Assembly: GCA_018266105.1 (NCBI GenBank)
Contig: JAFEBA010000001.1
Coordinates: 71,594-135,593 of the forward strand
DNA length: 64,000 bases
Direction of reading: 5' to 3'
Origin: a bacterium
GTDB lineage: Bacteria; Vulcanimicrobiota; Xenobia; Xenobiales; JADMJV01
Below the pieces are notes generated by a model, which worked only from the letters and a program-made list of their open reading frames with translations, was not told the DNA's origin and searched no databases. Both the position numbers and the translations under genes were made by a program. Shown here piece after piece: positions 39,433-60,438 of the stretch (positions are counted from its first letter, which is position 1; every line of letters begins with the position of its first letter).

Positions 39433-42120
39433 CTAGTCTTCTAAGAGGAACTCGTTCCACATCCGCTGGATTCGCATGCGGGCGGAGGTGATGCCGGTGC
39501 CGTGCTCAAACAGGTCGTTGAGGCCTTCCTGTACTTCCTCCAGGAGTTCTGGCTGGAAAAGCAGTTCCTCTCGCAGGCAACCATAGGTGGCAGCGGTGAT
39601 GCCCACCAACCGGGCCGCCGCGTGGTCGGCCACCGGGTCCAGGCGCTTCAAGAACACTTCGTCGCGGAACGCGAATTCGCGGGTGTAGAGGAAGCCGACC
39701 CAGTTGGTGGCCTGGTACCAGTGTAACAGCAGATTGCGGCATTCGTTCTCGAACTCCGGAGCGGCCGGGTCCAGAGCTTGAAGTCGGTCCATTAAGCTGG
39801 GATTGGGAACGGAGCCCTCCTCCAGGTAGAGCTCCACGGCTGCCTGAGCCAGTTGGAGGCGCTGAGCATCGGTCAAGGCGCTGGACTGATGAGCCAGCTG
39901 GCTGTGGCCGCGATACATCCGAACCAGGTGTCGGAAGACCAGGAAGCAGAGCTCCTCCGGAGGCATGCCCTCAATGTCGCGATGGAAGATGAGTGTCAGT
40001 TCGGGCTCCGCGCTGGCATCCACCAGGAACATGTCGTCTCCGTCATAAGTGAGAACTTTCAGTTCGGGGAAGTCAAACAGTGTGTAGTCAACCGCTCGCA
40101 GCGCCTGGCGCAGGGTGCCGACGAAGGCAGCTGGACCGGTGTTCTCCAGCCGCTGTTCGAATTGCTCGGAGGGAACCGGTAGTTTCAGGCCGGCCTTGGG
40201 GAGCAAGTTGTCTCGCAGGAAACTGACGACTTCCTCTTCCTCCTCGTTGCCAAGGCTGGAAACAAAATCTCGATTGAGGCCCCTTTTGCCCATGCCGACT
40301 CCGAGTTCTTGTTTCTGGACCTCGGCCCGGGGGGAGGTGCCGAACTGATAGAACAAGGCCAGGCGGTCGCCATTGTTGCCCGTGGCGGTGGATTCGGCAG
40401 AGGACAGGATTTCGAAGAGGTAGACCATCTCGGCACCCGCCATGGCCTCGTTAAGGTAAGGCACGATGTCTTCCTGGCCGGCTTTGATTCGGGCCAGCGC
40501 CAGGTTGGCCTTGGCTTCATTCTCAACCCAGGTTTCCACTTCCAGGGCCTGTTCCAGCAGCTCGGCCGCGCCCTGGGGGTTGCTGCTCACCAGATTGAGG
40601 CCGTTGGCGATTTGCTCAAACTTTGCGCGCGCGGCAGCCGGCGCCCAGTCTTCTGTTTGCCCGGCTTCGGCGACAGGCTCTTCAGCCACGGAAGCTTGCT
40701 CTTCAGGAAGCTGCTCGGGTTCCTGCGCCACGGGCTCGGGCTCCTCAGCCACGGGCTCGGGCTCCTCAGCCACAGGCTCGGCCATTGCTTCTTCTGGCTC
40801 TGGAATGATGGACTCTTCGGTTTCGTCCAGGGCCAGGGCGTCTTCGAAATTCAGTTCCGGCGACTCGGCAGTCGGCTCCTCCGGCTCTGGTTCGGGCTGC
40901 TCGACAACCAGTTCTTCGGCGACTGTCTCCTCAGTGACCGGCTCCTCTACAACCGGCTCCTCGGCGATCGGCTCTTCCTCGGTCAGGATTTCCTCGGTCA
41001 GGATTTCTTCAGGGCTGGCCTCCTCTACGATGGCCTCTGTGACCACCTTCTCAGCGGGATCGGAGAGTTCCGCTTCCAGGCTCAGCGCAGTGGATGGCTC
41101 GTCGATGGGTTCGGGAGCTTGCTCCTCTGATTCAGCGTCGAGCAAGGCAGATAGATCGAGCTCTGGCTCCGGTTCGGGCTGCACCAGATCGATTTCGGGC
41201 TCGGGCTCTAGAGGTTCGGTTTCCTGGGCCTTCAGCTCCAGAGGTGCAGGGTCGGTTTGCCGGGCCGCCGGGGGCGTCGGCAGGGGTGACTCGTCTCCCG
41301 AGACTTGCTTCCACGCCTCGCCCAGGGCTGATTTGAGGGCGGCCTGATCGGCCGGCTCGCCGAACAGTTGGCTCCCTGTATCCTGGAGCGTGTCGAAGAG
41401 TTCCTCCAGTTTGGGCATTTCCGAGCAACTGTGGGGGAGTTCGAGCAGTTCGTAGACTTGATCGACCAGAGTCCGGCCCGGGATGCCCAGCACCAGATCC
41501 AGTTGGGACATCAGGATATCATAGGCGGTGCCGGACGAGTGGCTGGCGACGGCCTGGAAGTCATCGCCGCTCAAAAACTGCTCTTTGAAGTCGTGAACCA
41601 GTTGCTCCAGTTTGGCGATGCGGCCTTCGCGGGTGGTCAACTCTTCCTGGAGCTGGCTCATGTTTTGCTGGCGACGAGCCAGCTCTTCTTTCTGGCGGGC
41701 CAGCTCGGCCTCGTGGCTATGAACCTGTTCGCGGCTTTGAGTGAGTTCGCTCTGGAGCTCCTCCACCGAGTGGTCCAGCTTCTCACCCCGCGCTGTGGCG
41801 TCGGCCAGCTGGGCCTCCAGCCGGGCCTTCATCTCGGCCGCCTGGTTGCGGGCTTCGGCTAACTCTTGAGCAGCGCGTTCCTGAGTTTCGGCCAGCTCCT
41901 GTTGCAGTTTCTTGCTTTGCTGGTCCAGTTGCCGGTTCTTAAAGGCAAGCTGAACGCCTTCGCCCGTCAATCGCTTCACTTCTTCGGTGAGGCGCTTGTT
42001 GGTGGAGCGCAACTCTTTAATCTGTTCAAAAGCCTTCAGATCGGGCTCGCCCAGTTGACTTTTCAAGCTGGCGTTTTCTTCTTGAAGTTGAGCCAATTGT
42101 TGCGCTAAGTCGGCGGACAT
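39433..42120 (-). CDS. Large coiled-coil protein with a central acidic Pro/Glu-rich repeat region and a C-terminal globular domain
   Basis: 895 aa. The N-terminal roughly 190 aa is heptad-rich (LAQLQEENASLKSQL...). Residues about 290-480 are PEPE/EEPV repeats (AEEPEPVAEEPEPVAQEPE, EEILTEEILTEEE). The C-terminal roughly 400 aa is non-repetitive. Confidence 0.6.
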   Translation of the reverse strand: MSADLAQQLAQLQEENASLKSQLGEPDLKAFEQIKELRSTNKRLTEEVKRLTGEGVQLAFKNRQLDQQSKKLQQELAETQERAAQELAEARNQAAEMKARLEAQLADATARGEKLDHSVEELQSELTQSREQVHSHEAELARQKEELARRQQNMSQLQEELTTREGRIAKLEQLVHDFKEQFLSGDDFQAVASHSSGTAYDILMSQLDLVLGIPGRTLVDQVYELLELPHSCSEMPKLEELFDTLQDTGSQLFGEPADQAALKSALGEAWKQVSGDESPLPTPPAARQTDPAPLELKAQETEPLEPEPEIDLVQPEPEPELDLSALLDAESEEQAPEPIDEPSTALSLEAELSDPAEKVVTEAIVEEASPEEILTEEILTEEEPIAEEPVVEEPVTEETVAEELVVEQPEPEPEEPTAESPELNFEDALALDETEESIIPEPEEAMAEPVAEEPEPVAEEPEPVAQEPEQLPEEQASVAEEPVAEAGQTEDWAPAAARAKFEQIANGLNLVSSNPQGAAELLEQALEVETWVENEAKANLALARIKAGQEDIVPYLNEAMAGAEMVYLFEILSSAESTATGNNGDRLALFYQFGTSPRAEVQKQELGVGMGKRGLNRDFVSSLGNEEEEEVVSFLRDNLLPKAGLKLPVPSEQFEQRLENTGPAAFVGTLRQALRAVDYTLFDFPELKVLTYDGDDMFLVDASAEPELTLIFHRDIEGMPPEELCFLVFRHLVRMYRGHSQLAHQSSALTDAQRLQLAQAAVELYLEEGSVPNPSLMDRLQALDPAAPEFENECRNLLLHWYQATNWVGFLYTREFAFRDEVFLKRLDPVADHAAARLVGITAATYGCLREELLFQPELLEEVQEGLNDLFEHGTGITSARMRIQRMWNEFLLED
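40739..40793. repeat. 21-bp tandem repeat (CACGGGCTCGGGCTCCTCAGC, about 2.6 copies) encoding AEEPEPV units
   Basis: Seen directly in the sequence. A second 15-bp tandem (CGGTCAGGATTTCCT, two copies) at 40981-41010 encodes EEILT. Confidence 0.8.
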
Positions 42121-42194: not shown

Positions 42195-44414
42195 TTGAAC
42201 ATGCGTAAGCGCACGGAAATGGGCGAGTTTGATGCCGTCAAACGAATTCAGACGGTCAAAGGCCGTGATTACATTCCTCGTCAGAATGCTCACCGACTGG
42301 CCGTGGTCGATGACAGATGGGCGGAGGCTCGCGCCGGGCGCATCGAGGCCCAGGCCAGGAGGGGGCCGTCCAACCCGGCCAATCGGAAACCCCTCAATGT
42401 TCAGCTGTATGTAACCCGCTACCGTTCGGCTCTGCGCAGTTGGCCTCAAATCGAGAGCTTGATCGAGCGTTTGAATGAATTCTTCGTTGGCCCCCAGCTG
42501 GTGTTTCAACTGGTGGAGCCGGCTGAGTGCAATCGCTCGGTTTCCTACGCCCAGCGCTGTCCTTTCGGGGCCGATCTGGATCATGAGTACGAGTGGCTGC
42601 ATCTGGCGGTCGTCCCCAGGCTGCCCGACGAGCTCCCGGTACTGACCTCCTGCGGGCGCTGCATGCTCATCTCGGACCGCAGCCAGGATCAGGATATCGC
42701 GCGCGCTCTGGCTCAGCTACTGGGCCTGGGGCCCAACTGCGAGCTGGACTTTAGCGAGCAGAGTATCCAATGGTTGCGCTGGCAGGCCTTTTTGCTGCAG
42801 GGCCAACCAGTGCCCCTGCCTTTGGTGAGTCTACCCGTTTGGGCCTACCCTGTGGTGACGCCGGACGATTATCACTCCCAGCGAAATCTGGAGCAGATCC
42901 AGCAACTTTTGGAGCGAGTGAATTTGATCTGGATGCAGGCCGGGGTTTCCTTTGAGCTGGCGGGCTGTTGTCCGTTGCATCATTCGGACATCGGTGAGCA
43001 AGCCTGGGAGCAGGCGGTCACGCCTTCTGTGGAGCCCCTTTTGAAGCTGACGGAATACGCTCCGAACTCTCTTCATCTGCCCATGATTCGGGCCGTTCCG
43101 GTTCCCTGGTCTTGTTTTGCGTATCCTGAGCATCGCCTGGCTATCGTGCGCGATGGGGTCACCCCCCTTTCGGTCGCTCAGGCCTTGGGCCGACTGTTGG
43201 GCCTGACCGAGGTCGAGGGCAGGGACCAATTGCTGAGCCTGGGGGCCGAGGGACAGCGTATCGGAAACGATGAAGCCCGTCGCGCCAGAGAGCGTGGCCT
43301 GCAGATGAGCGGACTGTCCCTGGATACCCCCGTTCCAGAGGTGGTTCGGGCCGCTCGCAGGGGTTGGTTGGCCCCGGCCCTTCCGGAGCAGCGCAGCCTC
43401 GAATTTCAGCTGATCTTGTTGCGTGGTCCAGATTCGGCCTGCAAACTGAGCCTGGAAGAGGCTCGCAGCTGGTTAGAGGAGGTGGGCCTGGTCTGGGCCC
43501 AGGCCGGAATTGCGCTGAGGCCCCATTTAAGCGAAGCTGATGTGGCTCAAGCGGCCGTGGAGGCCGCCTACCCCAATCCTGGGGGCGAGCGTAAGCCCAG
43601 TTGTGCGGGGCTGACCCGGTTGCCCGGTTACCGAGCCGGTAGCTACAATCTTTGCGTCCTGCAAAGGCTGCCGGTGCTCAACAAAATCGAGCAGTATCAG
43701 TCTTACCTGAATTGGCCCGGCCCTCGTCTGACGCTGCTGGCGGCGGACTTTCCCGCACACGGCAGGGTCAAGCAGTTGGCCCTGGCTCTGGCGGCGGCCT
43801 GGGGGGTCAAGCCAGGGGAAGGCGCCTTTCAGCGCCTGTTGACGCGCGGCTCTCAAGGCTTAAGGTTAGAGCCGGACGACTGCGCTGCCGTGCATGCCGC
43901 TCTGGCCGGGCCGGCTTTTCAGGCCCCCTCGCCCAGCTCCCGCTCCACTTTCGGTGAGTTGCTCTCGTTGCCCATCAAGTTGCGCCGTGTCACCGGTCAC
44001 AATCCATGTCTTTCGCAGGCCGAGGAAGTGGCTCGCCTGGTTTGTTCTCATCCGATCTGGGAGCAGACCAATATTCAACCGAAGATTGTGGATTCCGATC
44101 AAGTCGAGGTGGGGGAGGCGGCCTTGTTGGAGAGCTATCCCAGCGCGCCCGGTAGCGCCACTCCGCGCATCCCCTTCAATTTTGGACTGTTGCGTCTGCC
44201 CGGGCACCACCCTCAGGCCATCAACCTGCTGGTGGTGGGGCAGATGCCGACCGGCAACAGTTCCGCTTTCTCGCTTTCCAGAATGGTGCTGGCTGATCCC
44301 GACTGTGCCGCGGCCGGGTTGGCGCAGCTGATCGGACTGAACCTTTCGGCGCCGATATCGGCTGAAGCGATGAAGTCAGCCCGCTCCACTTTGCTCAGAA
44401 TGTTTCAGACCTGA
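42195..44414 (+). CDS. Protein built from four tandem degenerate metzincin (matrixin)-like repeats lacking the zinc ligands
   Basis: Four roughly 170-aa repeats. Each has a W-x-Q-A-G-[IV]-x-[FL] element (LERVNLIWMQAGVSFEL, LEEVGLVWAQAGIALRP) about 100 aa before a helix. That helix aligns with HExxHxxGxxH but carries substitutions: IARALAQLLGLGPN, VAQALGRLLGLTEV, LALALAAAWGVKPG, AAAGLAQLIGLNLS. Confidence 0.45.
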   Translation: MNMRKRTEMGEFDAVKRIQTVKGRDYIPRQNAHRLAVVDDRWAEARAGRIEAQARRGPSNPANRKPLNVQLYVTRYRSALRSWPQIESLIERLNEFFVGPQLVFQLVEPAECNRSVSYAQRCPFGADLDHEYEWLHLAVVPRLPDELPVLTSCGRCMLISDRSQDQDIARALAQLLGLGPNCELDFSEQSIQWLRWQAFLLQGQPVPLPLVSLPVWAYPVVTPDDYHSQRNLEQIQQLLERVNLIWMQAGVSFELAGCCPLHHSDIGEQAWEQAVTPSVEPLLKLTEYAPNSLHLPMIRAVPVPWSCFAYPEHRLAIVRDGVTPLSVAQALGRLLGLTEVEGRDQLLSLGAEGQRIGNDEARRARERGLQMSGLSLDTPVPEVVRAARRGWLAPALPEQRSLEFQLILLRGPDSACKLSLEEARSWLEEVGLVWAQAGIALRPHLSEADVAQAAVEAAYPNPGGERKPSCAGLTRLPGYRAGSYNLCVLQRLPVLNKIEQYQSYLNWPGPRLTLLAADFPAHGRVKQLALALAAAWGVKPGEGAFQRLLTRGSQGLRLEPDDCAAVHAALAGPAFQAPSPSSRSTFGELLSLPIKLRRVTGHNPCLSQAEEVARLVCSHPIWEQTNIQPKIVDSDQVEVGEAALLESYPSAPGSATPRIPFNFGLLRLPGHHPQAINLLVVGQMPTGNSSAFSLSRMVLADPDCAAAGLAQLIGLNLSAPISAEAMKSARSTLLRMFQT

Positions 44415-44457: not shown

Positions 44458-45081
44458 GTGCGCAAATTACGCGGACATACGCTGCTGGAAGTCATGATGT
44501 GTGCCTCCCTGCTCACCTTGACGTTGGGATTGATGGCGCCCCTCTTTGGGCGCACCAGCCGGGTGGTGAATCGGGCCGATCGCGATGCCAGTTCACAGCA
44601 GCAGGCCCTGGTGGGAGTGCAGAAGCTCTTTGCTGAGGCGGCTTACTCCAGTTCCGCCAGCCTGCGGATTGACCCCACCGACCCCAGTGCCTGTGCTTTC
44701 CTCAGTCAGCAGGCAGTGCATGGAGCCAGTGTTCCGCCCATCGGGACAGGAGATTTCTTAAAGACGGGCTTTTTCACCCCCGAGATGCACTGGCAAAAGA
44801 TGCTGGTGATCTACTATCAGAGCGGCACCCAAAAGCTGAACTACAAAGAGTTTACCTACAACGACCCACAGCAAGAAATCGCGCTGGTCCATCGCGACCG
44901 ACTGCAAGCCCTGATTTACCGCACAGACACTCCCGAGCACGTGGTGGCCACGGGGGTGACTGGCTTTACTGTAGAATCTCCCCAGCAAGGGTTGATTTCG
45001 ACTTCCATCACCGCTGAGAAGAAATGGGATAAGACCTTTCGATGCAAACTCGATCTGCTTTTCGCAATGCGCAATCAGTAA
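44458..45081 (+). CDS. Pseudopilin/minor pilin-like protein (prepilin-type N-terminus, GspH/FimT-like size)
   Basis: MRKLRGHTLLEVMMCASLLTLTLGL matches a prepilin cleavage/methylation site with Glu at +5. GTG start. Confidence 0.6.
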   Translation: MRKLRGHTLLEVMMCASLLTLTLGLMAPLFGRTSRVVNRADRDASSQQQALVGVQKLFAEAAYSSSASLRIDPTDPSACAFLSQQAVHGASVPPIGTGDFLKTGFFTPEMHWQKMLVIYYQSGTQKLNYKEFTYNDPQQEIALVHRDRLQALIYRTDTPEHVVATGVTGFTVESPQQGLISTSITAEKKWDKTFRCKLDLLFAMRNQ

Positions 45082-46268
45082 GGGGAATCGCCGTAATCAC
45101 GGTGCTGCTGATCAGCGGCGTGATTCTGGCTTTCGTTCTGGGCGGCCTCAATCTGGCCGCTCAGCACCTTTTTCAGGTCTCCGCCCTGCACAGTCGGCAC
45201 CGTGCCCTATGCGCCGCTGAGGTGGGGGTAAGTAAGGCTCAGTATGAACTGGAGGAGAATCCAGCCTACGCCGGGCCGGCGAACGGGGCTTTGGAGGACG
45301 GTTCTCAGTATTCGGTCAGCATCGAGCACGTGGGGACAAAAGCCATTCTTCATTCGCTGGGGCAAGCGGGGGGGCAGTCGCAGAAGTTGAAGGTGGTGAT
45401 GTCCCTGGATGCCGATACCTATAGAGCTCTCAGCTCAAAGGGCTTGCTCGATTTTCCGACCGACTCGTTCATCAACGGGATCCGCTCACTCTCTGACACT
45501 CGCAGCGCCAAGGGAAACACTCATACCCAGGGTGATCTGCGCATTGCTGGTGCTGCCAAGCTCTCGGTGACCGGCCTGGCTTCGGCTTCGGGTAGTTTCG
45601 ATGACCCCAGCCGTGTCGTAGCGGGAGAGCACGCCACCGGCGGGACGGCCACCACTCCCAATTTCACCAGGGACTCGCTCCTGGCGGTGTCTTTTCCCGG
45701 CGCCTTCATTCCGGCTAGTGGAACGGTCACTCAGAATACGGAAGTCAACGGTCAGACCAATTTGAATCATCCGCTCAATATCCCGGCGGGCGTAACCGTA
45801 CATGTGAAGGGAGACCTGATCCTCAATCAGGGGATGCATGGTGACGGCACGCTGGTGGTGGACGGAAATCTGCTGTTGCGCGGTTCTGAGAACTTGAAGA
45901 GCGATACTCCCAAGGGCGTTCTCGTCTACGCTCAAAAAGACATCATCCTGGCTCACCCCTCGGCAGAGGTGGACCCGGACGCCACCAACGGATTTACGGC
46001 TCACATCAGCAGCGTGGGTTCCCTGTTCGCTGAGATGCCGGAGGGAGTGCCTTACTTATTGCGCCAGCGCCTGCCGCCCGGCGCGCCCGCCAACGTGAAT
46101 TTTTTCGCCTGGTATTCTGCCCAGCAGCAGTCCCCCACGCCCGCCTTCACAGAGTGGCAGCAGGGGGACAACACCACCCTCAATCCAGGGCTACCGCCTG
46201 ATGTGCTCAGTTGGCTGGGCAAGGCGGCTGCCATGCACACCCAGATCGAAGCGACGGTGAACCCATGA
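45042..46268 (+). CDS. GspK/PilX-like pseudopilin with a large beta-rich C-terminal domain
   Basis: SVRGIAVITVLLISGVILAFVLG is a pilin-like N-terminal helix without Glu+5, the GspK hallmark. The C-terminus has Gly/Asn/Thr-rich beta-strand repeats (GDLILNQGMHGDGTLVVDGNLLLRGSENL). Confidence 0.55.
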   Translation: MQTRSAFRNAQSVRGIAVITVLLISGVILAFVLGGLNLAAQHLFQVSALHSRHRALCAAEVGVSKAQYELEENPAYAGPANGALEDGSQYSVSIEHVGTKAILHSLGQAGGQSQKLKVVMSLDADTYRALSSKGLLDFPTDSFINGIRSLSDTRSAKGNTHTQGDLRIAGAAKLSVTGLASASGSFDDPSRVVAGEHATGGTATTPNFTRDSLLAVSFPGAFIPASGTVTQNTEVNGQTNLNHPLNIPAGVTVHVKGDLILNQGMHGDGTLVVDGNLLLRGSENLKSDTPKGVLVYAQKDIILAHPSAEVDPDATNGFTAHISSVGSLFAEMPEGVPYLLRQRLPPGAPANVNFFAWYSAQQQSPTPAFTEWQQGDNTTLNPGLPPDVLSWLGKAAAMHTQIEATVNP

Positions 46269-46696
46269 AGAAACTTTGGCCTTTGCTCTTCCTGGCCGCG
46301 CTGGTGGTCGGCTGTAACGATGCCGCCACCGTGGCCGCTCAACTTCATCTCACCGAGGAGTCCGTCACGCTGGCGGCGGACAAATTCAAAGATCCTGAAG
46401 GCGCCTCGCTCAGCCCCACCCACTCCGACTACGTCAACAACTTGTTCGGGAATGTCAATCCTGCAGGAGTGGATGTCAATCTGGGGCTGCCCAACTACGC
46501 CTATTTTCAGGGCCTTCTTTTCAGTGAACAGAACGTCTTTATGGCCGGCCAGGTTCGCGTGGTCGGGGGAGTGGTGGCTAACGGCAATGTGACGGTGGCG
46601 GGCCAGGGTATGGTCACCACCAATCCGGAGAGCCAGATCAACCGCATCAGCGTGACCAAGGCACGTTGGAAAGTGGAGTCCTGGGTTCAGGAGTAG
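46265..46696 (+). CDS. Lipoprotein with Gly/Val/Asn-rich beta repeats
   Basis: Lipobox LAALVVGC. GQVRVVGGVVANGNVTVAGQGMVTT repeats. The ATG overlaps the upstream stop. Confidence 0.5.
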   Translation: MKKLWPLLFLAALVVGCNDAATVAAQLHLTEESVTLAADKFKDPEGASLSPTHSDYVNNLFGNVNPAGVDVNLGLPNYAYFQGLLFSEQNVFMAGQVRVVGGVVANGNVTVAGQGMVTTNPESQINRISVTKARWKVESWVQE

Positions 46697-46697
46697 A

Positions 46698-47096
46698 TCA
46701 GGGCTTGGGATAGCAAGATTCCAGGGTCACCTGGCGATCGCGGCTGCTCTGGCGCCAGGTGACTCGAGAGATCAACTTCACATAGCGACTTCCCATGGCG
46801 GGCAGAACCTGGGCGGTTACCTGCTGATGGTAGACCACGGTGGTGTCGTCAACAGGCACAGTCTGGTCTTTGACTCCCAGGGCAGGATTGGTGATCAGTT
46901 TGTCCAGGGCATTGGAGTCAACGCGCAGGCGTTCCAGTTCGCTCTGGGCGATGGTGGAGGCAACCGCCTGGTATTTGCCTTCCTTGACGCTGCGGTAGAC
47001 GGTGGCGACAAAACTGGCAATACAGATGACCGCCACGACCAGGATGGCCAGAGCCAGAACTACTTCGCTCAGACTGAGGCCACGTTTCGTTCGCAT
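46698..47096 (-). CDS. Pseudopilin (GspI-like) with a prepilin-type N-terminus
   Basis: MRTKRGLSLSEVVLALAILVVAV. 132 aa. Confidence 0.65.
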   Translation of the reverse strand: MRTKRGLSLSEVVLALAILVVAVICIASFVATVYRSVKEGKYQAVASTIAQSELERLRVDSNALDKLITNPALGVKDQTVPVDDTTVVYHQQVTAQVLPAMGSRYVKLISRVTWRQSSRDRQVTLESCYPKP

Positions 47097-47116
47097 GCGG
47101 TGGTATTCGCCGCGAT

Positions 47117-48145
47117 TTAGAGCTGGTCCCGCGCAGCCGCGGCCTGATCGGGCATATTTGAGAAAACTCCATCCAGGCCGGCTTCGAAATAGACCCGCAC
47201 CTCATCTTTGAGGGACCCGTTGGCTTCCGGATCGCTGCCGATTCGAAGGGCTGGGGGCAGGAAGCTATTCTCGGCGCGGAACGTCCAGCTATGGACTTTC
47301 AGCCCAGCCTCATGAGCGGCCTGGATCAGGCCTGTGTCGGCCGCCAGCGAGCCATCCGGGTTGCGCCGAATGAGCATCAGTTTGTAGGGGGAAACGGCGC
47401 TTGCGTAGGAAGCGATTTCGGCCAATCCGGCAGGCTTGACCATGTCCGCGTAGGTTTCTTTGCGTCCCGACTCGACCCAGTCTTGAGGAGCGCCCGCGTC
47501 ATCCACAAGCTGGACCAGGGGAATTTCCGTCATCTGGTGCAGTCGCTTCAGGTTGCTCACTTCGAAGGATTGAATGTAGACCGGCGCGTTGGCCCCTTGG
47601 TAGCCGTAGCGGCTCAAGATCGCGAGCATCTTGTCTTCGATGGGCAGCCCGATGCGCCGAAAGTAGCTCGGGTGCTTGGTCTCCGGGTAGACTCCGATGG
47701 TGCGCCCGTAGCTTTTTTCCCAGCCTCGCACGGCCCTTAGAATCTCTTCGAAGGTGACGATGGAGAAGCGCCCGTCATAGGCATGACTGGCGCGATTGCG
47801 GCCGCGAGCCCGTAAGCTCTTGAGTTCGGCCAGCGTGAAATCTTCCGTAAACCAGCCGGTAATCTGGCGGCCGTCCACGCTTTTGCTCGTCTTACGACCG
47901 GCGAATTCGGGATGCTCGGCAACGTTGGTGGTGTCGCTGATATCATTTTCGTGACGCGCCACCAGATGACCATCTTTGGTCGGCACCAGATCGGGTTCGA
48001 CATAGTCAGCGCCCTGGCGCACGGCCAGTTCGTAGCCTTCCAAAGTATGCTCGGGCAGGTAGCCGCTGGCCCCTCGATGAGCAATAACGATCGGTTTGGA
48101 CCAGGCGTTCAGGCTCAGGACTACAAACAAAAGCAGGCGTTTCAT
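47117..48145 (-). CDS. glpQ: Glycerophosphodiester phosphodiesterase
   Basis: IAHRGASGYLPEHTLEGYELAVRQGADYVEPDLV catalytic N-terminus. The start is taken at the signal-peptide Met (MKRLLLFVVLSL); an alternative start lies at 48187. Confidence 0.85.
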   Translation of the reverse strand: MKRLLLFVVLSLNAWSKPIVIAHRGASGYLPEHTLEGYELAVRQGADYVEPDLVPTKDGHLVARHENDISDTTNVAEHPEFAGRKTSKSVDGRQITGWFTEDFTLAELKSLRARGRNRASHAYDGRFSIVTFEEILRAVRGWEKSYGRTIGVYPETKHPSYFRRIGLPIEDKMLAILSRYGYQGANAPVYIQSFEVSNLKRLHQMTEIPLVQLVDDAGAPQDWVESGRKETYADMVKPAGLAEIASYASAVSPYKLMLIRRNPDGSLAADTGLIQAAHEAGLKVHSWTFRAENSFLPPALRIGSDPEANGSLKDEVRVYFEAGLDGVFSNMPDQAAAARDQL

Positions 48146-48206
48146 CTGGCCGGGATTCGTCGGCCGAGGCCAGTTCCTGCCCGTCAAAGTATTTGCATAC
48201 TGTGAC

Positions 48207-48251
48207 GAAAGTCATTGAATACAGTACTCTATAAACAAGTTTTGTATCCCA
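48207..48251. promoter_or_regulatory. AT-rich divergent promoter region with clustered palindromes (AGTAT-ttgc-ATACT; TGAC-gaaa-GTCA; ATACAGTACTCTAT)
   Basis: Read directly from the sequence between glpQ and the 974-aa gene. The half-site ATAC/GTAT recurs. Confidence 0.4.
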
Positions 48252-48311
48252 GATCATAGCCATTGCTAAGACCAGCCTGCTAACTTCACCGTATTAACTT
48301 ACTCGAAGGAG

Positions 48312-51236
48312 GTGCCCACAATGATTCGTGGCACCGGCAAACGAGCCCGCGGTAGCGCCCTGGTGGCCGTCATGATGGTGATCGCAATGCTGATGGCCGT
48401 CGTTCTGGCGATCTCGCACTTCCAGGCGGTGGCCCGCCGAACATACATGACCGAAGAAGCCAATCTGCGCTTTCGGGAAGCGGCCCGATTCGAAACCCGC
48501 CGTCAAGTCCTGAATATCAATCCTCCCGGAGATCTCATTCTGTCGGTCAAGGTCAAAGACGAGACCCCCGCCGGCACCCCCAAGCTCAGCAAAGAGATGG
48601 CCAGCGACATTTTCAACCGCAGCTCTTCTCAGTTGCCCGATTTACGATCTGTGGATAAAAGCCCGGCCAACCAGGTTTTGCGCTTTACTCCTCAGAGCAA
48701 TGACCCAGGTCTGCTGGTTTTTGGGAGCAACACCTACACCCAACTTGTCACCAACGTGCCCGGTTACGCGGCCTACGCTCCCAACGGAAGCGTCAACATT
48801 ACCAACCTGGAGAGTTGGGCCAACCCGACTTTCCAGGACGCACGCAAAACCTTGCAGGCCTACTCGGGCGTGATGGCTGTGGTAGCAGCCAAGCAGGACG
48901 CGAATATTGCCAATGTGACCTACGGCGAAGCCCACGTCATGGAAGGGACTGCCAAGTTTGACCACGGCGATGGAGTGGGTTTTAAGAAGAAGAACTTCCC
49001 CTTACCCGCCTATGAGGCTCTGCTGGTTCAGCAAGCCAAGGACGCTCGCCAGGCGCTGATCAATCAGGCAGCCAGCGGAGATAAAACCCAACAGCTCTAT
49101 TCGGGCGACCTCAGCCCTCAGAGCGTGATTGATCTATTCTTCAACGGCCAGCAGGGCCTGGAAGCCATGCTCAGTTTGAATAAGTCCAATCATTTCTTCA
49201 TGCCGACCATCCCCTTCTTTAGTTCGGCTCCGCCTTACCTTTACAGCTTCGCCTTCCATATGCCTTACCCGGCTGATAACGCCAGTTACAGTCCGAATGA
49301 AAACTTGAACAAACAAGTGGAAGCTCTCAACAAGCAGATCAAACAGGCCGGTGAGGATCTCAAAAAGGCCTACGATGTTCAGCAGGCGGCCCAGCAGGCC
49401 TACGACCAGAACAAGAGCAGCGATAATCTCCAAAAGCTGATCGATGCCAATACTGCTTACAACCTGGCCAAGGCCAAGGTCGATGACCTCAACCAACAAA
49501 TGCAGGCTCTCTTCGGGCCTCAAAAGGCGGCCATGGATGCCCAGATCGGAAGCAGTCAGCCGCGCGGCGTGCCCCTGACCCGGGCACAGGACCCCAGTGG
49601 TAATGATGGGGTCACGGGCTGGAGCTACGCCAGCTCAGGCAGTCTGTTGGGCCAGCTGATCAAACTGATCTTCACCTTTGACGTTGAGGACCTGGCCAAG
49701 AGCTTCGGAAACACCGAGGTAAAACTGGTCCACTTCGGCACCAAGGAACGTGAGTTCAAATTTGTGCTGGATGGAAACAACCTGGGTATCGACGCCACCA
49801 TGACTGTGCCTCGGGGGCGAGTGCTCAAGTTGAGTGGCAAGAATATCACGATCTCAGGCGATCTCTGGCTGCAGCGCGGCTCAACTTTCTATGCTGACTG
49901 CGATAAGCTCACGGTGGTTCCTGGGCGCGGCAGCGATCCGAGCAAATACTTCAGCCCCTGCGGCCGAATCTTTATGGAAGAAGGCAGTACCCTGATCTGT
50001 CGAGGAGAGGTCGAGTGTCTGGGCTCATCCGACTGGGGTTCGGTGGTGGTGGGAGGAGTGCCGGGAAAAATTCATCCGATCACTGCCGCCATTTTTGCCA
50101 ATAAGGTGACGCTGGGGAACGGCATTTTCGCTGGCTGCGCCCTGGACGATCTGGCCGAAGGGCTGGGAGACCTCTTCAATAGCTCGGAGCTGAAGGACTT
50201 GAACTCCAAGCTGATGCGACCCCTCTTCACAGAGGTGGCACCCAACGCAGCCAAGGCTCTAGGCCCGTTCTGGCCCCGTAAGCCATACTTTGCGAAGTAC
50301 GCCACCACCTTTCAGGTGATCTGCCCGCCCTTACCTCCTTTCGGCGAACCAGGACCTCCGGTTCCAACCGCAATTCCGTTGCCCATCAAGAATGTGCTGG
50401 TTCCGATCGAACGCGCTCTGGGCTACGTTTACTCGGTCAGCCTGAACCTGGGCCTGGGCGAAAATTTCTACACCCACTCCGACTGGTGGATCTTCGGCGA
50501 AGGAGTTGTGCCTGTGGTCCCCCAGGTGGATCCGAATAAGATTCTGGACAAGCTGAACAATCTGACCGGCAGCATCGCCGGTTTGCACCCGGAGGACATT
50601 ATCAAAACCTTCATCGAGGCGGCCGTCAAAGACATGGTTTCCTATGTGGTGGCTGAGGTGGTGGAGAAGATCGTGGCAAAGGTGCTGGCGGCCGCGATTC
50701 CTTACGCCGGTCTGGCCGAGGTGGCCACCAGCTTATTGGATGAAGCCACCAGTAATCTAACCGGCCGCGATACCGCCCGGGACTCTGCCGGGCAGGCGCT
50801 GACTTCGGCTCTCACCGATTCTCTGGCCTCGGCGGGCAAAGCCACTTTGGACAAGCTGGCCAGTACCGTCAGCATGAATCTGCAGGACGACTTCTTGCGT
50901 GAGTACAACGGCTTGCTGGTCTACGCCGATGACACCATTACGGTCGGCGGCAAGAACGCCACCGGGATGTTCGTGGCCGGCGGCAATTTGCGAGTGACTT
51001 CAAACCAGTGCACCGGCACGCTGCTTTCAGTCAATGGCAATATCCAGTGCACCAGCCTGTTGTTCTATCCCTACTTCAATCGGGCTTCGCTCTACCTGCC
51101 CAAGGAGACCGCGTCGGGCTGGCTGGAGCGGGGGGCACAGTGCTTCTACGATAAAGACTGGGATAGTAAGAAGGCTGTGGATGTTGGACCGCCGGCCATT
51201 CCTCCGGTCGTTTCGGCTCAGGGTTGGGCCCAATGA
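48312..51236 (+). CDS. Giant (974 aa) GspK-like pseudopilin-N-terminus protein with a central coiled-coil and beta-solenoid-like segments
   Basis: N-terminal RGSALVAVMMVIAMLMAVVLA is a pilin-like helix without Glu+5. The middle has a Q/K/A-rich helical stretch (NKQVEALNKQIKQAGEDLKKAYDVQQAAQQAYDQN). Later segments are Gly/Asn/Thr-rich (TITVGGKNATGMFVAGGNLRVTSNQCTGTLLSVNGNIQCTS). Confidence 0.6.
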   Translation: MPTMIRGTGKRARGSALVAVMMVIAMLMAVVLAISHFQAVARRTYMTEEANLRFREAARFETRRQVLNINPPGDLILSVKVKDETPAGTPKLSKEMASDIFNRSSSQLPDLRSVDKSPANQVLRFTPQSNDPGLLVFGSNTYTQLVTNVPGYAAYAPNGSVNITNLESWANPTFQDARKTLQAYSGVMAVVAAKQDANIANVTYGEAHVMEGTAKFDHGDGVGFKKKNFPLPAYEALLVQQAKDARQALINQAASGDKTQQLYSGDLSPQSVIDLFFNGQQGLEAMLSLNKSNHFFMPTIPFFSSAPPYLYSFAFHMPYPADNASYSPNENLNKQVEALNKQIKQAGEDLKKAYDVQQAAQQAYDQNKSSDNLQKLIDANTAYNLAKAKVDDLNQQMQALFGPQKAAMDAQIGSSQPRGVPLTRAQDPSGNDGVTGWSYASSGSLLGQLIKLIFTFDVEDLAKSFGNTEVKLVHFGTKEREFKFVLDGNNLGIDATMTVPRGRVLKLSGKNITISGDLWLQRGSTFYADCDKLTVVPGRGSDPSKYFSPCGRIFMEEGSTLICRGEVECLGSSDWGSVVVGGVPGKIHPITAAIFANKVTLGNGIFAGCALDDLAEGLGDLFNSSELKDLNSKLMRPLFTEVAPNAAKALGPFWPRKPYFAKYATTFQVICPPLPPFGEPGPPVPTAIPLPIKNVLVPIERALGYVYSVSLNLGLGENFYTHSDWWIFGEGVVPVVPQVDPNKILDKLNNLTGSIAGLHPEDIIKTFIEAAVKDMVSYVVAEVVEKIVAKVLAAAIPYAGLAEVATSLLDEATSNLTGRDTARDSAGQALTSALTDSLASAGKATLDKLASTVSMNLQDDFLREYNGLLVYADDTITVGGKNATGMFVAGGNLRVTSNQCTGTLLSVNGNIQCTSLLFYPYFNRASLYLPKETASGWLERGAQCFYDKDWDSKKAVDVGPPAIPPVVSAQGWAQ

Positions 51237-51679
51237 ACAGGCGGGGTCTGAGTTTGCCCGAGTCCATTCTGGCCATCTGTATCTGCTTTATGGCCTTTGC
51301 CGTCTTTACCAGCGTCTTTTCCAATGCCAGGCGCGCTTCGGTGCAAAGTCGCGACCGCACGGCCGCGATCATGCTGGCCAACACCATGCTGGATGAACTC
51401 GAGGCTCACCCTTATGGTGAGCCCGCTCCTCAGTGGTGGAGCAGTCAGGTGGACCATCCGGTGCGCGCCTGGGTCGAGGGCAACGAGGTCGAGATGAGCT
51501 TTCATAAGCGAGTCGAGTTCGAGACCAAGGGGGCCATCGGTCTGTCGGCTGAGGACAAGGATGTGGCCACCGTGATCATCAGCTGGCACGAGAATATGGG
51601 GACTCCCCAGACTCCCGTTGTTCGACCTGAGGACAACAAGTCTCTGGTGGTGCGCTACCCGCTCTGGAGGGGTCAATGA
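51233..51679 (+). CDS. Pseudopilin (GspI-like) with a prepilin-type N-terminus
   Basis: MNRRGLSLPESILAICICFMAFAV. The ATG overlaps the stop of the 974-aa gene. Confidence 0.65.
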   Translation: MNRRGLSLPESILAICICFMAFAVFTSVFSNARRASVQSRDRTAAIMLANTMLDELEAHPYGEPAPQWWSSQVDHPVRAWVEGNEVEMSFHKRVEFETKGAIGLSAEDKDVATVIISWHENMGTPQTPVVRPEDNKSLVVRYPLWRGQ

Positions 51680-52434
51680 AACGTCGCGGTATGACCTTGC
51701 TGGAGGTCTTGATTTACGTGATCATGGCGGGAATGGCTTCCATGGCGGTGGGCGCCCTGTTTTCCTTGGGACGTAAGGCCCAGGGCACGATGCTGGCCGG
51801 CTACCTGGTTAGTGGTCAGACCGACACTGCTTTGCGCTGGATTCGGCAAGATTTGCAAGAAACGGCGCTGACCAGCATCACCACCTATCCCAACGCCAGC
51901 CAGGCTGCTCAGCCTCCGGGTTGCTCGTTCGTCAGCCCGCGTGAGCCCGGCGGAGCCTTCCAGACCAGCGTTTATGCCAGGCCGCGCTGGGTCAAATTTG
52001 TGCTTTACAGTTTGAGGGATCAGGGCGACGGACGACGGGGGGAGTTGATTCGCTGGGAACTGCCTTTCAGCGACGCTCAGAAGGACTTCGTTCCTCATAC
52101 TTGCGCCACTCTGCCCAACGCCTTCACTGAAAACAAGTATCGAAGAGTGCTTGTGAAAGACGTATTGCTTCCAAATCAGAAGGTTCCCAATCTCAAGCAG
52201 AATCCGGACTATCAGACAGGACCAAACGGAGGCTTCCGCGTGCTGTTTGTGCAGCGAGCCGGCAGCGAGGCCGGGGCGGAAACCCTGACCTCGGTCAATC
52301 CGGGCGACAATACGGTGGCTCAAAAGCCAGCCGATCATCACACTCTGGTTGATGTTCGTCTGGAAATCCTATCGGATGACAAGTTCTATCCTTCATTTTA
52401 TCAAATTGGATTCAAGGTCCATCCCAAGTACTAG
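51676..52434 (+). CDS. Pseudopilin (GspJ-like) with a prepilin-type N-terminus
   Basis: MKRRGMTLLEVLIYVIMAGMASMAV. 252 aa. The ATG overlaps the upstream stop (ATGA). Confidence 0.65.
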   Translation: MKRRGMTLLEVLIYVIMAGMASMAVGALFSLGRKAQGTMLAGYLVSGQTDTALRWIRQDLQETALTSITTYPNASQAAQPPGCSFVSPREPGGAFQTSVYARPRWVKFVLYSLRDQGDGRRGELIRWELPFSDAQKDFVPHTCATLPNAFTENKYRRVLVKDVLLPNQKVPNLKQNPDYQTGPNGGFRVLFVQRAGSEAGAETLTSVNPGDNTVAQKPADHHTLVDVRLEILSDDKFYPSFYQIGFKVHPKY

Positions 52435-52449
52435 CGGAATGACCCCGGG

Positions 52450-52896
52450 ATGGTTCTCTATCTACCTTTGGTCGTGGTTGCCCTGGCCCAACTGGCCACC
52501 CTGGCCAGCTGGGCGGCTCTGCGCAAGACTTATGACAGCGACTTTTACCTTCCGGGCGGAGTGGCTTTTGGGCCACAGGGCCAGAATCGCAAGTTGATCC
52601 TGGCCTGCTTTCTGCAATTGCTGGCCTGGACTGCCTACGGGTTGTGGCTGGGTCACCTGCTGCCGGCGTCCTTGAACCTGCATAAGCTGTTGGGAGTGGT
52701 GGCCATCCCGTACATGCTGGCCATGTGGCTCCTGATCAGCGTAGGGCGACATCTGGGCCGGTTTTCCGACCTGCGCATGACTCGGCCCGACGGCAGTCAG
52801 ATCTTGCCTCTTGATCTGATGAGGCCGCTAAGTCTGGCGGTGAATGCCTACGCAACCCTGGTGCTGTTGGTGCCGCTGCTTTTTTACCTGACCTAG
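52450..52896 (+). CDS. Hypothetical membrane protein (4 transmembrane helices)
   Basis: 148 aa, four hydrophobic helices, directly downstream of the pseudopilin genes. Confidence 0.4.
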   Translation: MVLYLPLVVVALAQLATLASWAALRKTYDSDFYLPGGVAFGPQGQNRKLILACFLQLLAWTAYGLWLGHLLPASLNLHKLLGVVAIPYMLAMWLLISVGRHLGRFSDLRMTRPDGSQILPLDLMRPLSLAVNAYATLVLLVPLLFYLT

Positions 52897-60365: not shown

Positions 60366-60406
60366 GCCCTCATTTTCTTTTCGCAGTGTTCACAAGCCTG
60401 CCAGGT

Positions 60407-60428
60407 ATGAATTCAATGAATTGAGAAT
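60407..60428. promoter_or_regulatory. Three phased TGAATT/GAATTC direct repeats (GAATTCAATGAATTGAGAATTC) in the MCP/che divergent promoter
   Basis: Read directly from the sequence. Repeat spacing is about 9-10 bp. Confidence 0.35.
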
Positions 60429-60438
60429 TCTGTGGTAA

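What the first reader, a model, noticed from the sequence alone, without database searches (positions are those of the whole stretch)
44458..52434. Cluster of six prepilin-N-terminus genes including two oversized GspK-like proteins (408 and 974 aa), with no ATPase, platform or secretin in the window
Six genes begin with prepilin-type cleavage/methylation sequences. Four carry the conserved Glu+5: RGHTLLEVMM, RGLSLSEVVL, RGLSLPESIL and RGMTLLEVLI. Two lack it, which is the GspK/PilX hallmark: RGIAVITVLL and RGSALVAVMM.

Both Glu-less members are far larger than canonical GspK (about 330 aa). Downstream of the N-terminal helix they carry Gly/Asn/Thr-rich strand repeats (GDLILNQGMHGDGTLVVDGNLLLRG; TITVGGKNATGMFVAGGNLRVTSNQCTGTLLSVNGNIQCTS), suggestive of beta-helix/solenoid folds. 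The 974-aa protein also has a central Q/K-rich coiled-coil.

A small lipoprotein in the cluster carries the same V/G/N repeats. The cluster is interrupted by a minus-strand glpQ-pseudopilin pair. It looks like a minor-pseudopilin tip complex decorated with giant adhesin-like or filament-cap subunits, an architecture not matching standard T2SS or T4P minor-pilin operons.
Basis: partly seen in the sequence, partly recalled or inferred. Interest (0 to 1): 0.7.

Follow-up and report, generated by a model that had tools for sequence, protein, structure and literature searches.

The report
Two pilus-tip gene sets, giant caps
This stretch of an uncultured Eremiobacterota (Vulcanimicrobiota) genome holds two separate sets of "minor pilin" genes that most likely build the tips of type IV pili, each with an oversized tip-cap protein carrying a beta-solenoid like the Thermus ComZ and cyanobacterial PilX caps, so it extends a known design to a new phylum rather than revealing a new machine.

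Summary
Six genes at 44458-52434 start with prepilin-type leaders: four keep Glu+5 and two (408 aa and 971/974 aa) lack it. The window has no assembly ATPase or platform gene.

The reading needs correction. This is two independent modules, not one six-gene complex. They occur together or apart in related genomes. Each has a small PilV/GspI-like pilin, a 200-250 aa Glu5 pilin and a Glu5-less cap.
- Module 1: A, B, C and convergent D.
- Module 2: F, G, H, translationally coupled.

This architecture has precedents: ComZ/PilA2, and the cyanobacterial PilX-Com and PilX-EPS/HpsA sets.

Neither cap matches a curated family. The F family has 185 clusters; every labelled source is an Eremiobacterota MAG or a probably mislabelled one, and no member has Glu5.

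In divergent relatives, F-like trios sit beside PilC and a Ser/Thr-kinase-PilB/GspE fusion.

One twist: lipoprotein C appears homologous to the C-terminal module of unsplit ~600-aa caps, so B plus C looks like a split cap (moderate evidence).

Verdict: new variant of a known kind; moderate interest.

The parts
44458..45081 (+). A: module 1 Glu5 minor pilin (207 aa), leader MRKLRG|HTLLE; proposed PilW/GspJ-position subunit
   Evidence: ORF. Pfam N_methyl E 0.0064; NCBIfam XpsI/GspH weak, N-terminal only. Conserved next to B in L002, L004, L006, L025 and L026. The C-terminal ...FAMRN motif is shared with the ~207-aa pilins that follow unsplit caps in L023/L024. Weak paralogy to an H-like protein (E 6.6e-7). 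The GspJ-like role is inferred from size and position only.
45042..46268 (+). B: module 1 Glu5-less cap pilin (408 aa), leader ...SVRG|IAVIT; N-terminal helix, 4-stranded pilin sheet, beta-solenoid, C-terminal helices
46265..46696 (+). C: probable lipoprotein (143 aa), proposed detached C-terminal module of the module 1 cap; ATGA overlap with the B stop
   Evidence: Junction read. Gly-Cys invariant. hhalign of the C family against the unsplit-cap profile: 74%, E 2.7e-5, C 38-141 onto cap 478-617, i.e. the C-terminal end; 52% with fewer sequences. HMM hits are reciprocal and specific among 1267-1479 sequences. The L025 homologue has a TM helix plus a PAPVQ linker instead of a lipobox.
46698..47096 (-). 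D: module 1 small Glu5 minor pilin (132 aa), leader MRTKRG|LSLSE; PilV/GspI class; convergent on A-B-C
   Evidence: NCBIfam PilV E 1.6e-7, XpsI 2.6e-5, GspI 1.1e-3, all below cutoffs. Convergent next to B-C in L002, L004, L006, L025 and L026. Same-strand ~140-aa counterpart follows unsplit caps in L009 and L020-L024.
47117..48187 (-). GDPD/GlpQ phosphodiesterase: neighbour, probably co-transcribed with D; not a core part
   Evidence: Pfam GDPD E 1.5e-46. Found next to F only in close relatives (L001, L002, L006, L007), not in divergent loci.
48321..51236 (+). F: module 2 Glu5-less giant cap pilin (971 aa from ATG 48321; the ORF from GTG 48312 is 974 aa), leader MIRGTGKRARG|SALVA
51233..51679 (+). 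G: module 2 small Glu5 minor pilin (148 aa), leader MNRRG|LSLPE; PilV/GspI class; ATGA overlap with the F stop
   Evidence: Junction read. Follows F in every locus with downstream sequence. Homologues hit PilV (2.4e-6), GspI (3.2e-6), XpsI and Verru_Chthon cassette B, N-terminal ~60 aa, below cutoffs.
51676..52434 (+). H: module 2 Glu5 minor pilin (252 aa), leader MKRRG|MTLLE; proposed PilW/GspJ/HpsC-position subunit; ATGA overlap with the G stop
   Evidence: Junction read. The family profile aligns in register with full-length pilin N-termini in the PDB (E 1.6e-4). The divergent homologue in L018 hits Verru_Chthon cassette C (3.5e-6) and HpsC (9.6e-5), N-terminal ~70 aa only. Always follows G.
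52450..52896 (+). 148-aa multi-pass membrane protein downstream of H: possible lineage-specific accessory
   Evidence: Conserved after H only in close relatives (L001, L002, L006, L007). No Pfam hit. Membership in the system is not shown.

Best explanation
The region encodes two independent minor-pilin sets. These are tip or priming complexes of a type IV filament machine, most likely type IVa pili. The host is an Eremiobacterota (Vulcanimicrobiota) bacterium.

Each set follows the GspI-GspJ-GspK / PilV-PilW-PilX logic:
- a small Glu5 pilin (D; G);
- a 200-250 aa Glu5 pilin (A; H);
- a Glu5-less cap (B with C; F).

Inferred mechanism:
1. A prepilin peptidase cleaves all the leaders after the conserved Gly.
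2. The three subunits associate in the inner membrane through their N-terminal helices.
3. The complex primes polymerisation of the major pilin by a PilB/PilC motor encoded elsewhere.
4. The complex ends up at the distal tip. The cap lacks Glu5 and carries an ice-binding-protein-type beta-solenoid, as ComZ does. It closes the filament and presents the solenoid as the ligand-binding or adhesive surface.

By analogy with cyanobacteria, the two sets would prime two functionally different filaments. Which functions is not known.

Shown here: leaders and their register, absence of Glu5, folds, synteny, translational coupling, and linkage to PilC and PilB/GspE in relatives.

Inferred: processing, complex formation, tip location and adhesin role.
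For: Sequence and profile evidence for the leaders:
- Leaders and Glu5 pattern read directly.
- H-family profile in register with PDB pilins.
- N_methyl hit in 23 of 33 homologues.
- PilV/GspI/XpsI-type hits for the D and G families.

Structural evidence for the caps:
- B is homologous to a PilX_N + DUF7305 protein.
- F family: 0 of 101 recognisable leaders with Glu5.

Gene organisation:
- F-G-H is invariant across loci down to 26% identity.
- ATGA overlaps at B/C, F/G and G/H.
- The modules occur together or apart.

Link to the machinery:
- PilC (E 1e-61) lies directly upstream of F-like paralogues in L019 and L016, and upstream of the ATPase gene in L018.
- A PilB/GspE ATPase (E 1e-108 to 1e-115) lies beside F-like trios in L011 and L018.

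Literature:
- The cultured phylum member makes type IV pili and has pilMDTC (PMC9758169).
- Precedents for solenoid caps and dual minor-pilin sets.
Against: - No curated family model reaches its cutoff on any of the six window proteins.
- Neither the F nor the B profile hits ComZ, GspK or any pilin in the PDB by sequence.
- B's model is only moderately confident (pTM 0.43), and Foldseek found nothing for it.
- A GspK-like head in F is not shown separately from the solenoid match.
- The GspJ/PilW assignment of A and H rests on size, position and N-terminal hits only.
- No GspH/FimU-type adapter, major pilin, peptidase, secretin, ATPase or platform gene is in the window, and the rest of this genome could not be read.
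- A membrane-tethered C is hard to fit with an extruded tip.
Confidence: 0.78

Rival explanations
1. The same proteins serve a non-extruded or secretion-type filament rather than surface type IV pili. Candidates are a T2SS-like pseudopilus, a competence pseudopilus, or an Hps-like polysaccharide-secretion apparatus. The caps would then work in the periplasm or at the outer membrane.
For: - The ATPases next to F-like trios score slightly better against GspE than against PilB (1e-108/1e-115 versus 1e-103/1e-106).
- Small pilins hit XpsI/GspI as often as PilV.
- One H-like protein hits HpsC and one other small pilin hits HpsB.
- C is membrane-tethered (lipobox or TM helix), which fits a filament that stays in the envelope.
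Against: - The structural matches are to ComZ, a T4P tip pilin.
- PilC matches the full-length T4aP PilC.
- The ATPase aligns to PilB over more of its length (residues 358-870) than to GspE.
- The cultured relative has visible type IV pili.
- No secretin or GspC/L/M genes appear in any locus.
- All the family hits are N-terminal helices, which do not separate T2SS from T4P.
Confidence: 0.2
2. All six pilin-like genes form one joint tip complex decorated with two giant subunits.
For: - The two modules are adjacent in the window, L002/L003 and L006.
- A module-1-like set lies within a few kb of an F trio in the distant loci L009 and L014.
Against: - The modules are found apart: L001 has module 2 only at the same site; L004, L025 and L026 have module 1 in unrelated contexts.
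- Each module already has one cap and two Glu5 partners. Two Glu5-less caps cannot both terminate one filament; this follows from the established role of Glu5.
- Several MAGs carry two or three cap sets at separate loci.
Confidence: 0.08
3. B and F are ordinary N-terminally anchored envelope or surface proteins with beta-helical domains (adhesins or enzymes). Their pilin-like leaders would be coincidental.
For: - There are no curated pilin-family hits for B or F.
- Beta-helical hits include autotransporter passengers, TPS adhesins and acyltransferases.
Against: - The basic-Gly-hydrophobic leader is conserved across the family, with Glu5 absent in 101 of 101.
- Translational coupling to bona fide Glu5 pilins is invariant.
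- GspK/GspI-like head in B and a ComZ match for F.
- PilC and PilB/GspE lie next to paralogues.
Confidence: 0.04

Closest known systems
ComZ with PilA2 of Thermus thermophilus (PDB 6qvi; PMC6561018)
   Same: - A cap-type minor pilin whose GspK-like pilin fold carries a large triangular beta-solenoid of the ice-binding-protein type.
- It is encoded next to a small partner pilin and is proposed to sit at the pilus tip.
   Different: - No sequence similarity.
- F is nearly twice as long, with a ~85-residue helical hairpin and a ~150-residue helical bundle inserted.
- DNA binding and a competence role are untested here.
Cyanobacterial PilX-Com/PilV-Com and PilX-EPS (HpsA-like)/PilV-EPS minor-pilin sets (bioRxiv 10.64898/2026.02.12.705559)
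   Same: - Two co-existing minor-pilin sets per genome.
- Each has a Glu5-less PilX with an ice-binding-type solenoid, one modest and one greatly expanded, paired with its own PilV-type partner.
- They are proposed to prime two different filaments.
- No PilY1 is needed.
- Both phyla belong to the kingdom Bacillati.
   Different: - F does not hit the NCBIfam HpsA model or any other.
- Only N-terminal sub-threshold HpsB/HpsC hits were seen in two homologues.
- Structural comparison with the cyanobacterial models was not possible because afdb50 was unavailable.
- The split B+C cap has no described cyanobacterial counterpart as far as I know.
GspI-GspJ-GspK tip trimer of the type II secretion pseudopilus (PDB 3ci0, 5vtm)
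   Same: - One small, one medium and one Glu5-less cap subunit.
   Different: - GspK carries an alpha-helical insertion, not a solenoid.
- gspH-K genes lie inside the gsp operon with E, F and D; here they do not.
- The Pfam and NCBIfam GspK models do not match B or F.
Verru_Chthon cassette proteins A-D (TIGR02600, TIGR02598, TIGR02599; uncharacterised; cassette description from memory)
   Same: A giant protein followed by prepilin-type proteins, in repeated cassettes. The G family hits cassette protein B (5 of 33, best E 2e-6) and an H-like protein hits cassette protein C (3.5e-6).
   Different: - All hits are below cutoffs and cover only the N-terminal helix.
- F does not hit protein A.
- Different phyla.
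Tapirins of Caldicellulosiruptor (PDB 4wa0, 6n2b)
   Different: - High rmsd, so only a partial match.
- F's tapirin HMM hit covers just the N-terminal helix (E 0.033).
- Tapirins are not known cap pilins.

Membership tests
Type IV pilin-like proteins (class III signal peptide; Pfam N_methyl PF07963 / TIGR02532) | Short basic leader ending in Gly (or Ala), hydrophobic N-terminal helix, Glu at +5 | tested here: met
   Read directly for A, D, G and H and their homologues. The H-family profile aligns in register with PDB pilins.
Type IV pilin-like proteins (class III signal peptide; Pfam N_methyl PF07963 / TIGR02532) | Score above the curated cutoff of the family model | tested here: inconclusive
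   Window A, D and H score 16.5-17.9 bits against a cutoff of 21.2; G has no hit. 23 of 33 homologues hit at E <= 0.01, best 4e-7.
Type IV pilin-like proteins (class III signal peptide; Pfam N_methyl PF07963 / TIGR02532) | Cleavage and N-methylation by a prepilin peptidase | not testable with these tools
   Needs experiment. No peptidase gene is in the window.
GspK / PilX-type cap minor pilins | Prepilin-type leader but no Glu at +5 | tested here: met
   B has Thr5 and F has Ala5. All B homologues lack Glu5. In the F family, 0 of 101 recognisable leaders has Glu5.
GspK / PilX-type cap minor pilins | Pilin head structurally like GspK | tested here: inconclusive
GspK / PilX-type cap minor pilins | Match to Pfam PilX_N / T2SSK or NCBIfam T2SS_GspK | tested here: not met
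   No hit for B or F at E <= 1. Only distant homologues of B hit: PilX_N (6e-4, below cutoff), DUF7305 (6e-7) and GspK (0.002-0.03).
GspK / PilX-type cap minor pilins | Encoded with GspI/PilV-like and GspJ/PilW-like partners | tested here: met
   F-G-H is invariant. B occurs with D and A in all loci. The PilV/GspI class of D and G is supported by sub-threshold hits. The J/W class of A and H is inferred only.
ComZ / cyanobacterial PilX solenoid cap pilins | Triangular beta-solenoid of the ice-binding-protein (DUF3494) type | tested here: met
ComZ / cyanobacterial PilX solenoid cap pilins | Overall structural match to ComZ | tested here: inconclusive
ComZ / cyanobacterial PilX solenoid cap pilins | [quoted passage not shown] | not testable with these tools
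Only the secondary-structure order is known: F ends in strands 955-958 and 966-973 after the solenoid.
ComZ / cyanobacterial PilX solenoid cap pilins | Sequence homology to ComZ or PilX/HpsA | tested here: not met
   The F and B profiles do not hit ComZ in the PDB at E <= 10. F has no NCBIfam hit to an HpsA model.
Verru_Chthon cassette (TIGR02598-02600) | Scores above model cutoffs for proteins A, B and C | tested here: not met
   F has no hit to protein A. The G family hits protein B at 16-18 bits against a cutoff of 51. L018 H-like hits protein C at 26.5 bits against 256.5.
Type IV filament machinery (functional linkage) | Genomic association with a PilB/GspE ATPase and PilC/GspF platform | tested here: met
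   Not in the window. Met in relatives: PilC at L019:8336-9574 (E 1e-61), L016 and L018; kinase-PilB/GspE fusions at L011:155-2776 and L018:4383-7001.

The most novel reading that the evidence does not exclude
In this lineage the module 1 cap pilin has been split into two genes. B keeps the pilin helix, head and most of the solenoid. The last solenoid rungs and the C-terminal strand are made as a separately exported, membrane-tethered protein (C). C carries a lipobox in most species and a TM helix plus Pro-rich linker in one.

B and C would reassemble in the periplasm into a two-piece tip. The tether would then control whether or when the tip leaves the membrane.

Together with this, the ~1000-aa F family would define a phylum-specific specialised filament. 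In some lineages its motor is a Ser/Thr-kinase-PilB fusion.
Probability: 0.3. Interest if true: 0.6.

Novelty: new variant of a known kind. Interest (0 to 1): 0.42.

Why it matters
Solenoid-bearing, Glu5-less cap pilins replacing PilY1-type tip adhesins have been described in Thermus and, very recently, in cyanobacteria. Finding the same design in Eremiobacterota points to an old and widespread Bacillati solution for building and specialising pilus tips. The points in common are the paired small and giant caps, each with its own partners.

The finding also gives names and testable roles to two families currently annotated only as "hypothetical protein". One of them has 185 sequence clusters.

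Two further results are leads for how tip complexes are assembled and regulated: the apparent split of a cap into a pilin plus a tethered piece, and the kinase-PilB fusions next to related loci.

It does not reveal a new kind of machine.

Tried and rejected
- **Curated family scans.** Pfam and NCBIfam scans of B and F gave no usable hit. F's only hits are coiled-coil noise and a tapirin match confined to the N-terminal helix. Scans of divergent F-like proteins also gave nothing.
- **PDB by sequence.** Profile searches with the F, B and G families found no pilin or ComZ hit. The H family hit only N-terminal helices.
- **Foldseek.** The B model against the PDB gave nothing at E < 0.3.
- **afdb50.** A fold search of F, to compare with cyanobacterial PilX/HpsA models, could not run because the library is unavailable.
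- **F versus B.** Only the N-terminal helix (54%) and one solenoid stretch (22-35%) align, so they are treated as separate families.
- **F C-terminus versus C or unsplit caps.** Not significant by hhalign. Only faint HMM hits appear near the C-termini of two F-family members.
- **Promoter/terminator scan of 44-53.6 kb.** At chance level.
- **PilY1-like reading.** Rejected: no propeller or vWA signal in the models or the hits.
- **glpQ as part of the system.** Rejected: it is syntenic only in close relatives.
- **Sequencing frameshift as the cause of the B/C split.** Rejected: the junction and a separate anchor are conserved in six species at 44-100% identity.
- **Literature search on kinase-PilB fusions.** Failed on term syntax and was not repeated.

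Full report
**1. Observation**

| Gene | Coordinates | Length | Leader and first residues |
|---|---|---|---|
| A | 44458-45081 (+) | 207 aa | MRKLRG\|HTLLE |
| B | 45042-46268 (+) | 408 aa | ...SVRG\|IAVIT |
| C | 46265-46696 (+) | 143 aa | MKKLWPLLFLAALVVGC... |
| D | 46698-47096 (-) | 132 aa | MRTKRG\|LSLSE |
| GDPD/GlpQ | 47117-48187 (-) | 356 aa | not a pilin |
| F | 48312/48321-51236 (+) | 974/971 aa | ...KRARG\|SALVA |
| G | 51233-51679 (+) | 148 aa | MNRRG\|LSLPE |
| H | 51676-52434 (+) | 252 aa | MKRRG\|MTLLE |

- Four proteins have Glu at +5. B has Thr and F has Ala.
- A simple motif screen over all 213 window ORFs of at least 80 aa returns these six and three unrelated hits without Glu5.
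- F's real start is ATG 48321, behind a GGAGG, which gives 971 aa.
- B/C, F/G and G/H overlap by ATGA. A and B overlap by 40 nt.
- No PilB/GspE or PilC homologue is among the window's ORFs.
- The Pfam-scanned neighbours are housekeeping, Bat/MoxR and chemotaxis genes.

**2. Are the N-termini really prepilin-type?**

- The window copies of A, D and H hit Pfam N_methyl only below the cutoff.
- Among 33 small-pilin homologues from related loci, 23 hit N_methyl (best E 4e-7).
- Many of them hit PilV, GspI, XpsI and ComGE models.
- The H-family profile aligns with full-length pilins in the PDB, with its conserved Gly at -1.

**3. Origin and distribution**

- The exact proteins are NCBI "hypothetical proteins" JST97_00565 and JST97_00585, on a 150,666-bp MAG contig.
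- All named relatives come from Candidatus Eremiobacteraeota / Vulcanimicrobiota MAGs or from MAGs labelled only "bacterium". Four genome-scan loci come from MAGs labelled Burkholderiales or Selenomonadaceae; these labels look wrong.
- An exhaustive profile search finds 185 clusters (50% identity) of the F family. Most members are 900-1350 aa, and the C-terminal 600 residues are the conserved core.
- Of 134 long members, 101 have a recognisable leader and none has Glu5. The other 33 look like truncated gene calls.
- The B family is small: 20 clusters at 90% identity. A profile search adds one distant 600-aa protein carrying PilX_N and DUF7305.

**4. Two modules, not one cluster**

- In L001 the same chromosomal site has GDPD-F-G-H but no A-B-C-D.
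- In L004, L025 and L026, A, B, C and D sit in unrelated contexts.
- In the window, L002/L003 and L006, both modules are adjacent.
- F-G-H is invariant in all loci down to 26% identity.
- GDPD, the 148-aa membrane protein after H, and the 739-aa and 895-aa upstream genes are syntenic only in close relatives.
- Each module has one Glu5-less cap, one ~130-150 aa PilV/GspI-like pilin (D; G) and one ~200-250 aa Glu5 pilin (A; H). This is the GspI-J-K / PilV-W-X composition.
- D and G are weak paralogues of each other. A is weakly similar to an H-like protein.

**5. Structures**

- *B model* (pLDDT 72.5, pTM 0.43). Its order is a 60-residue N-terminal helix, a four-stranded sheet, a run of short strands, then C-terminal helices.
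- *F model* (pLDDT 77.8, pTM 0.76). Its order is the N-terminal helix, a beta-rich head, a helical hairpin (330-414), a beta-solenoid (467-610) with a flanking long helix, a helical bundle (696-852), more solenoid rungs and terminal strands.
- ComZ is described as a GspK-like pilin with an inserted solenoid whose nearest relative is an ice-binding protein. It is argued to be a tip pilin that binds its neighbour PilA2 (PMC6561018).

**6. Precedent for two sets**

A 2026 preprint reports that cyanobacteria carry two minor-pilin sets. Each has a Glu5-less PilX with an ice-binding-type solenoid: a smaller Com type, and an expanded EPS type homologous to HpsA. Each pairs strictly with its own PilV subfamily and primes a different filament. 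The solenoid is proposed to replace PilY1 as the tip plug.

The window's pairing of a 408-aa and a 971-aa cap, each with its own partners, parallels this. Vulcanimicrobiota, like Cyanobacteria, belong to the kingdom Bacillati.

By sequence, neither cap belongs to any curated family such as HpsA, Verru_Chthon A, GspK or PilX_N. Only N-terminal sub-threshold hits link G to Verru_Chthon B and an H-like protein to Verru_Chthon C and HpsC.

**7. Link to the machinery**

- The window lacks motor genes, but relatives supply the link.
- PilC (M. xanthus PilC, E 1e-61) lies directly upstream of the more divergent F-like paralogues in L019 and L016. In L018 it lies upstream of the ATPase gene.
- In L011 and L018, an ~870-aa protein sits beside the F-G-H trio. 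It combines an N-terminal Ser/Thr kinase domain with a C-terminal GspE/PilB ATPase (E 1e-108 to 1e-115).
- The only cultured member of the phylum makes type IV pili and has pilMDTC (PMC9758169).
- Whether the filament is a surface pilus or a T2SS-like pseudopilus cannot be decided from these data.

**8. The lipoprotein C**

- B aligns to residues 2-391 of unsplit ~600-aa caps (L009 607 aa; P0056 600 aa) with 98.9% probability, E 1.4e-17.
- The C family aligns to the remaining C-terminal part, residues 478-617 of the cap profile, with 74% probability, E 2.7e-5. With fewer sequences the probability was 52%.
- An HMM of the caps' C-terminal 157 positions was searched against 1267 ORFs of the window and loci. 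Below E = 5 it picks only the L009 cap (itself part of the model), the four C proteins (E 1.2e-4 to 1.5e-2) and the L014 cap.
- The reverse search picks the six unsplit caps at the expected position.
- The alignment is anchored on YFQG(V/L)(I/L) and ends in a Trp-containing terminal strand.
- Unsplit caps are followed by a D-like and an A-like pilin, the latter ending in AFMRN like the window's A.
- The split, with its own anchor, is conserved in six species at 44-100% B identity. In L025 the anchor is a TM helix plus a PAPVQ-repeat linker instead of a lipobox.
- I therefore read B+C as a split cap. The evidence is moderate. How a tethered piece fits an extruded tip is unexplained.

**9. Mechanism proposed**

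Shown:
- leaders, register and the Glu5 pattern;
- pilin-like and solenoid folds;
- module composition and translational coupling;
- association with PilC and PilB/GspE in relatives.

Inferred from the established GspIJK / PilVWX model and from ComZ/PilX:
- prepilin-peptidase processing;
- assembly of each trio in the inner membrane;
- priming of major-pilin polymerisation;
- final location at the tip, with the Glu5-less cap terminating the filament and its solenoid acting as adhesin or receptor;
- the two modules priming two functionally distinct filaments.

The ligands and functions (DNA uptake, adhesion, motility) are unknown.

**10. Verdict**

- Novelty: a new variant of a known kind. These are uncurated, phylum-restricted cap families. 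F has large helical insertions, and B+C is probably a split cap.
- Interest is moderate.

Noticed in passing
L011:155-2776 (-) and L018:4383-7001 (+): An ~870-aa protein fuses an N-terminal Ser/Thr protein kinase domain (PknB-like, E about 1e-17 to 1e-21) to a C-terminal GspE/PilB assembly ATPase (E 1e-108 to 1e-115). It sits beside F-G-H-like trios. I know of no described kinase-PilB fusion; the literature was not searched successfully.
   Followed up: partly
L018:7793-9469, L014:10436-13036, L019:14288-16600: Stand-alone Ser/Thr kinase-domain proteins (558-866 aa) recur next to F-like trios in divergent lineages. This suggests kinase regulation of these filaments.
   Followed up: no
L019:8336-9574, L016:8309-9556, L018:2945-4348: PilC/GspF platform genes lie next to the more divergent F-like paralogues (26-30% identity to F): directly upstream in L019 and L016, and upstream of the ATPase gene in L018. 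The L019 copy hits M. xanthus PilC at E 1e-61. Single MAGs carry two or three cap sets (L009/L015, L011/L019, L014/L016).
   Followed up: partly
L025:9207-10043: The C homologue here is 278 aa. It has a Lys/Gly-rich N-terminus, one TM helix and about 130 aa of PAPVQ-type proline repeats before the conserved C-domain. The anchor type therefore varies, but the tether is kept.
   Followed up: yes
L019:13424-14308 (-) and L016:13381-14244 (-): G-like small pilins carry a ~150-aa coiled-coil C-terminal extension with SMC/PgrA-like hits. They lie convergent to the F-like gene.
   Followed up: no
window 58902-64000; L001:14604-22865: Chemosensory genes lie near module 2. In the window these are an MCP with CHASE3 (58902-60365, -), CheR-TPR (60849-62270, +) and a CheA-like fragment at the window end. 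In L001/L006 a full che cluster follows module 2 directly. It may control pilus-based motility; this was not tested.
   Followed up: no
window 39433-42120 (-) and 42195-44414 (+): An 895-aa protein with an N-terminal coiled coil and a very acidic Glu/Pro-rich middle, and a 739-aa protein. Neither has a significant Pfam hit. Both are syntenic upstream of the pilin modules only in close relatives.
   Followed up: partly
window 13577-21630: A complete Bat/MoxR-type operon: MoxR AAA ATPase, DUF58, a BatD/DUF4381-like protein, two VWA proteins, a TPR protein, BatD, and a TPR-SH3 protein.
   Followed up: no
window 4219-8354: A menaquinone biosynthesis cluster, apparently of the futalosine type: UbiE methyltransferase, an MqnC-like radical SAM enzyme, a VitK2_biosynth protein and a UbiA prenyltransferase.
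   Followed up: no
L008, L017 (labelled Burkholderiales); L014, L016 (labelled Selenomonadaceae): These MAG labels disagree with the Vulcanimicrobiota-type loci they carry. This points to mislabelled or contaminated bins.
   Followed up: no
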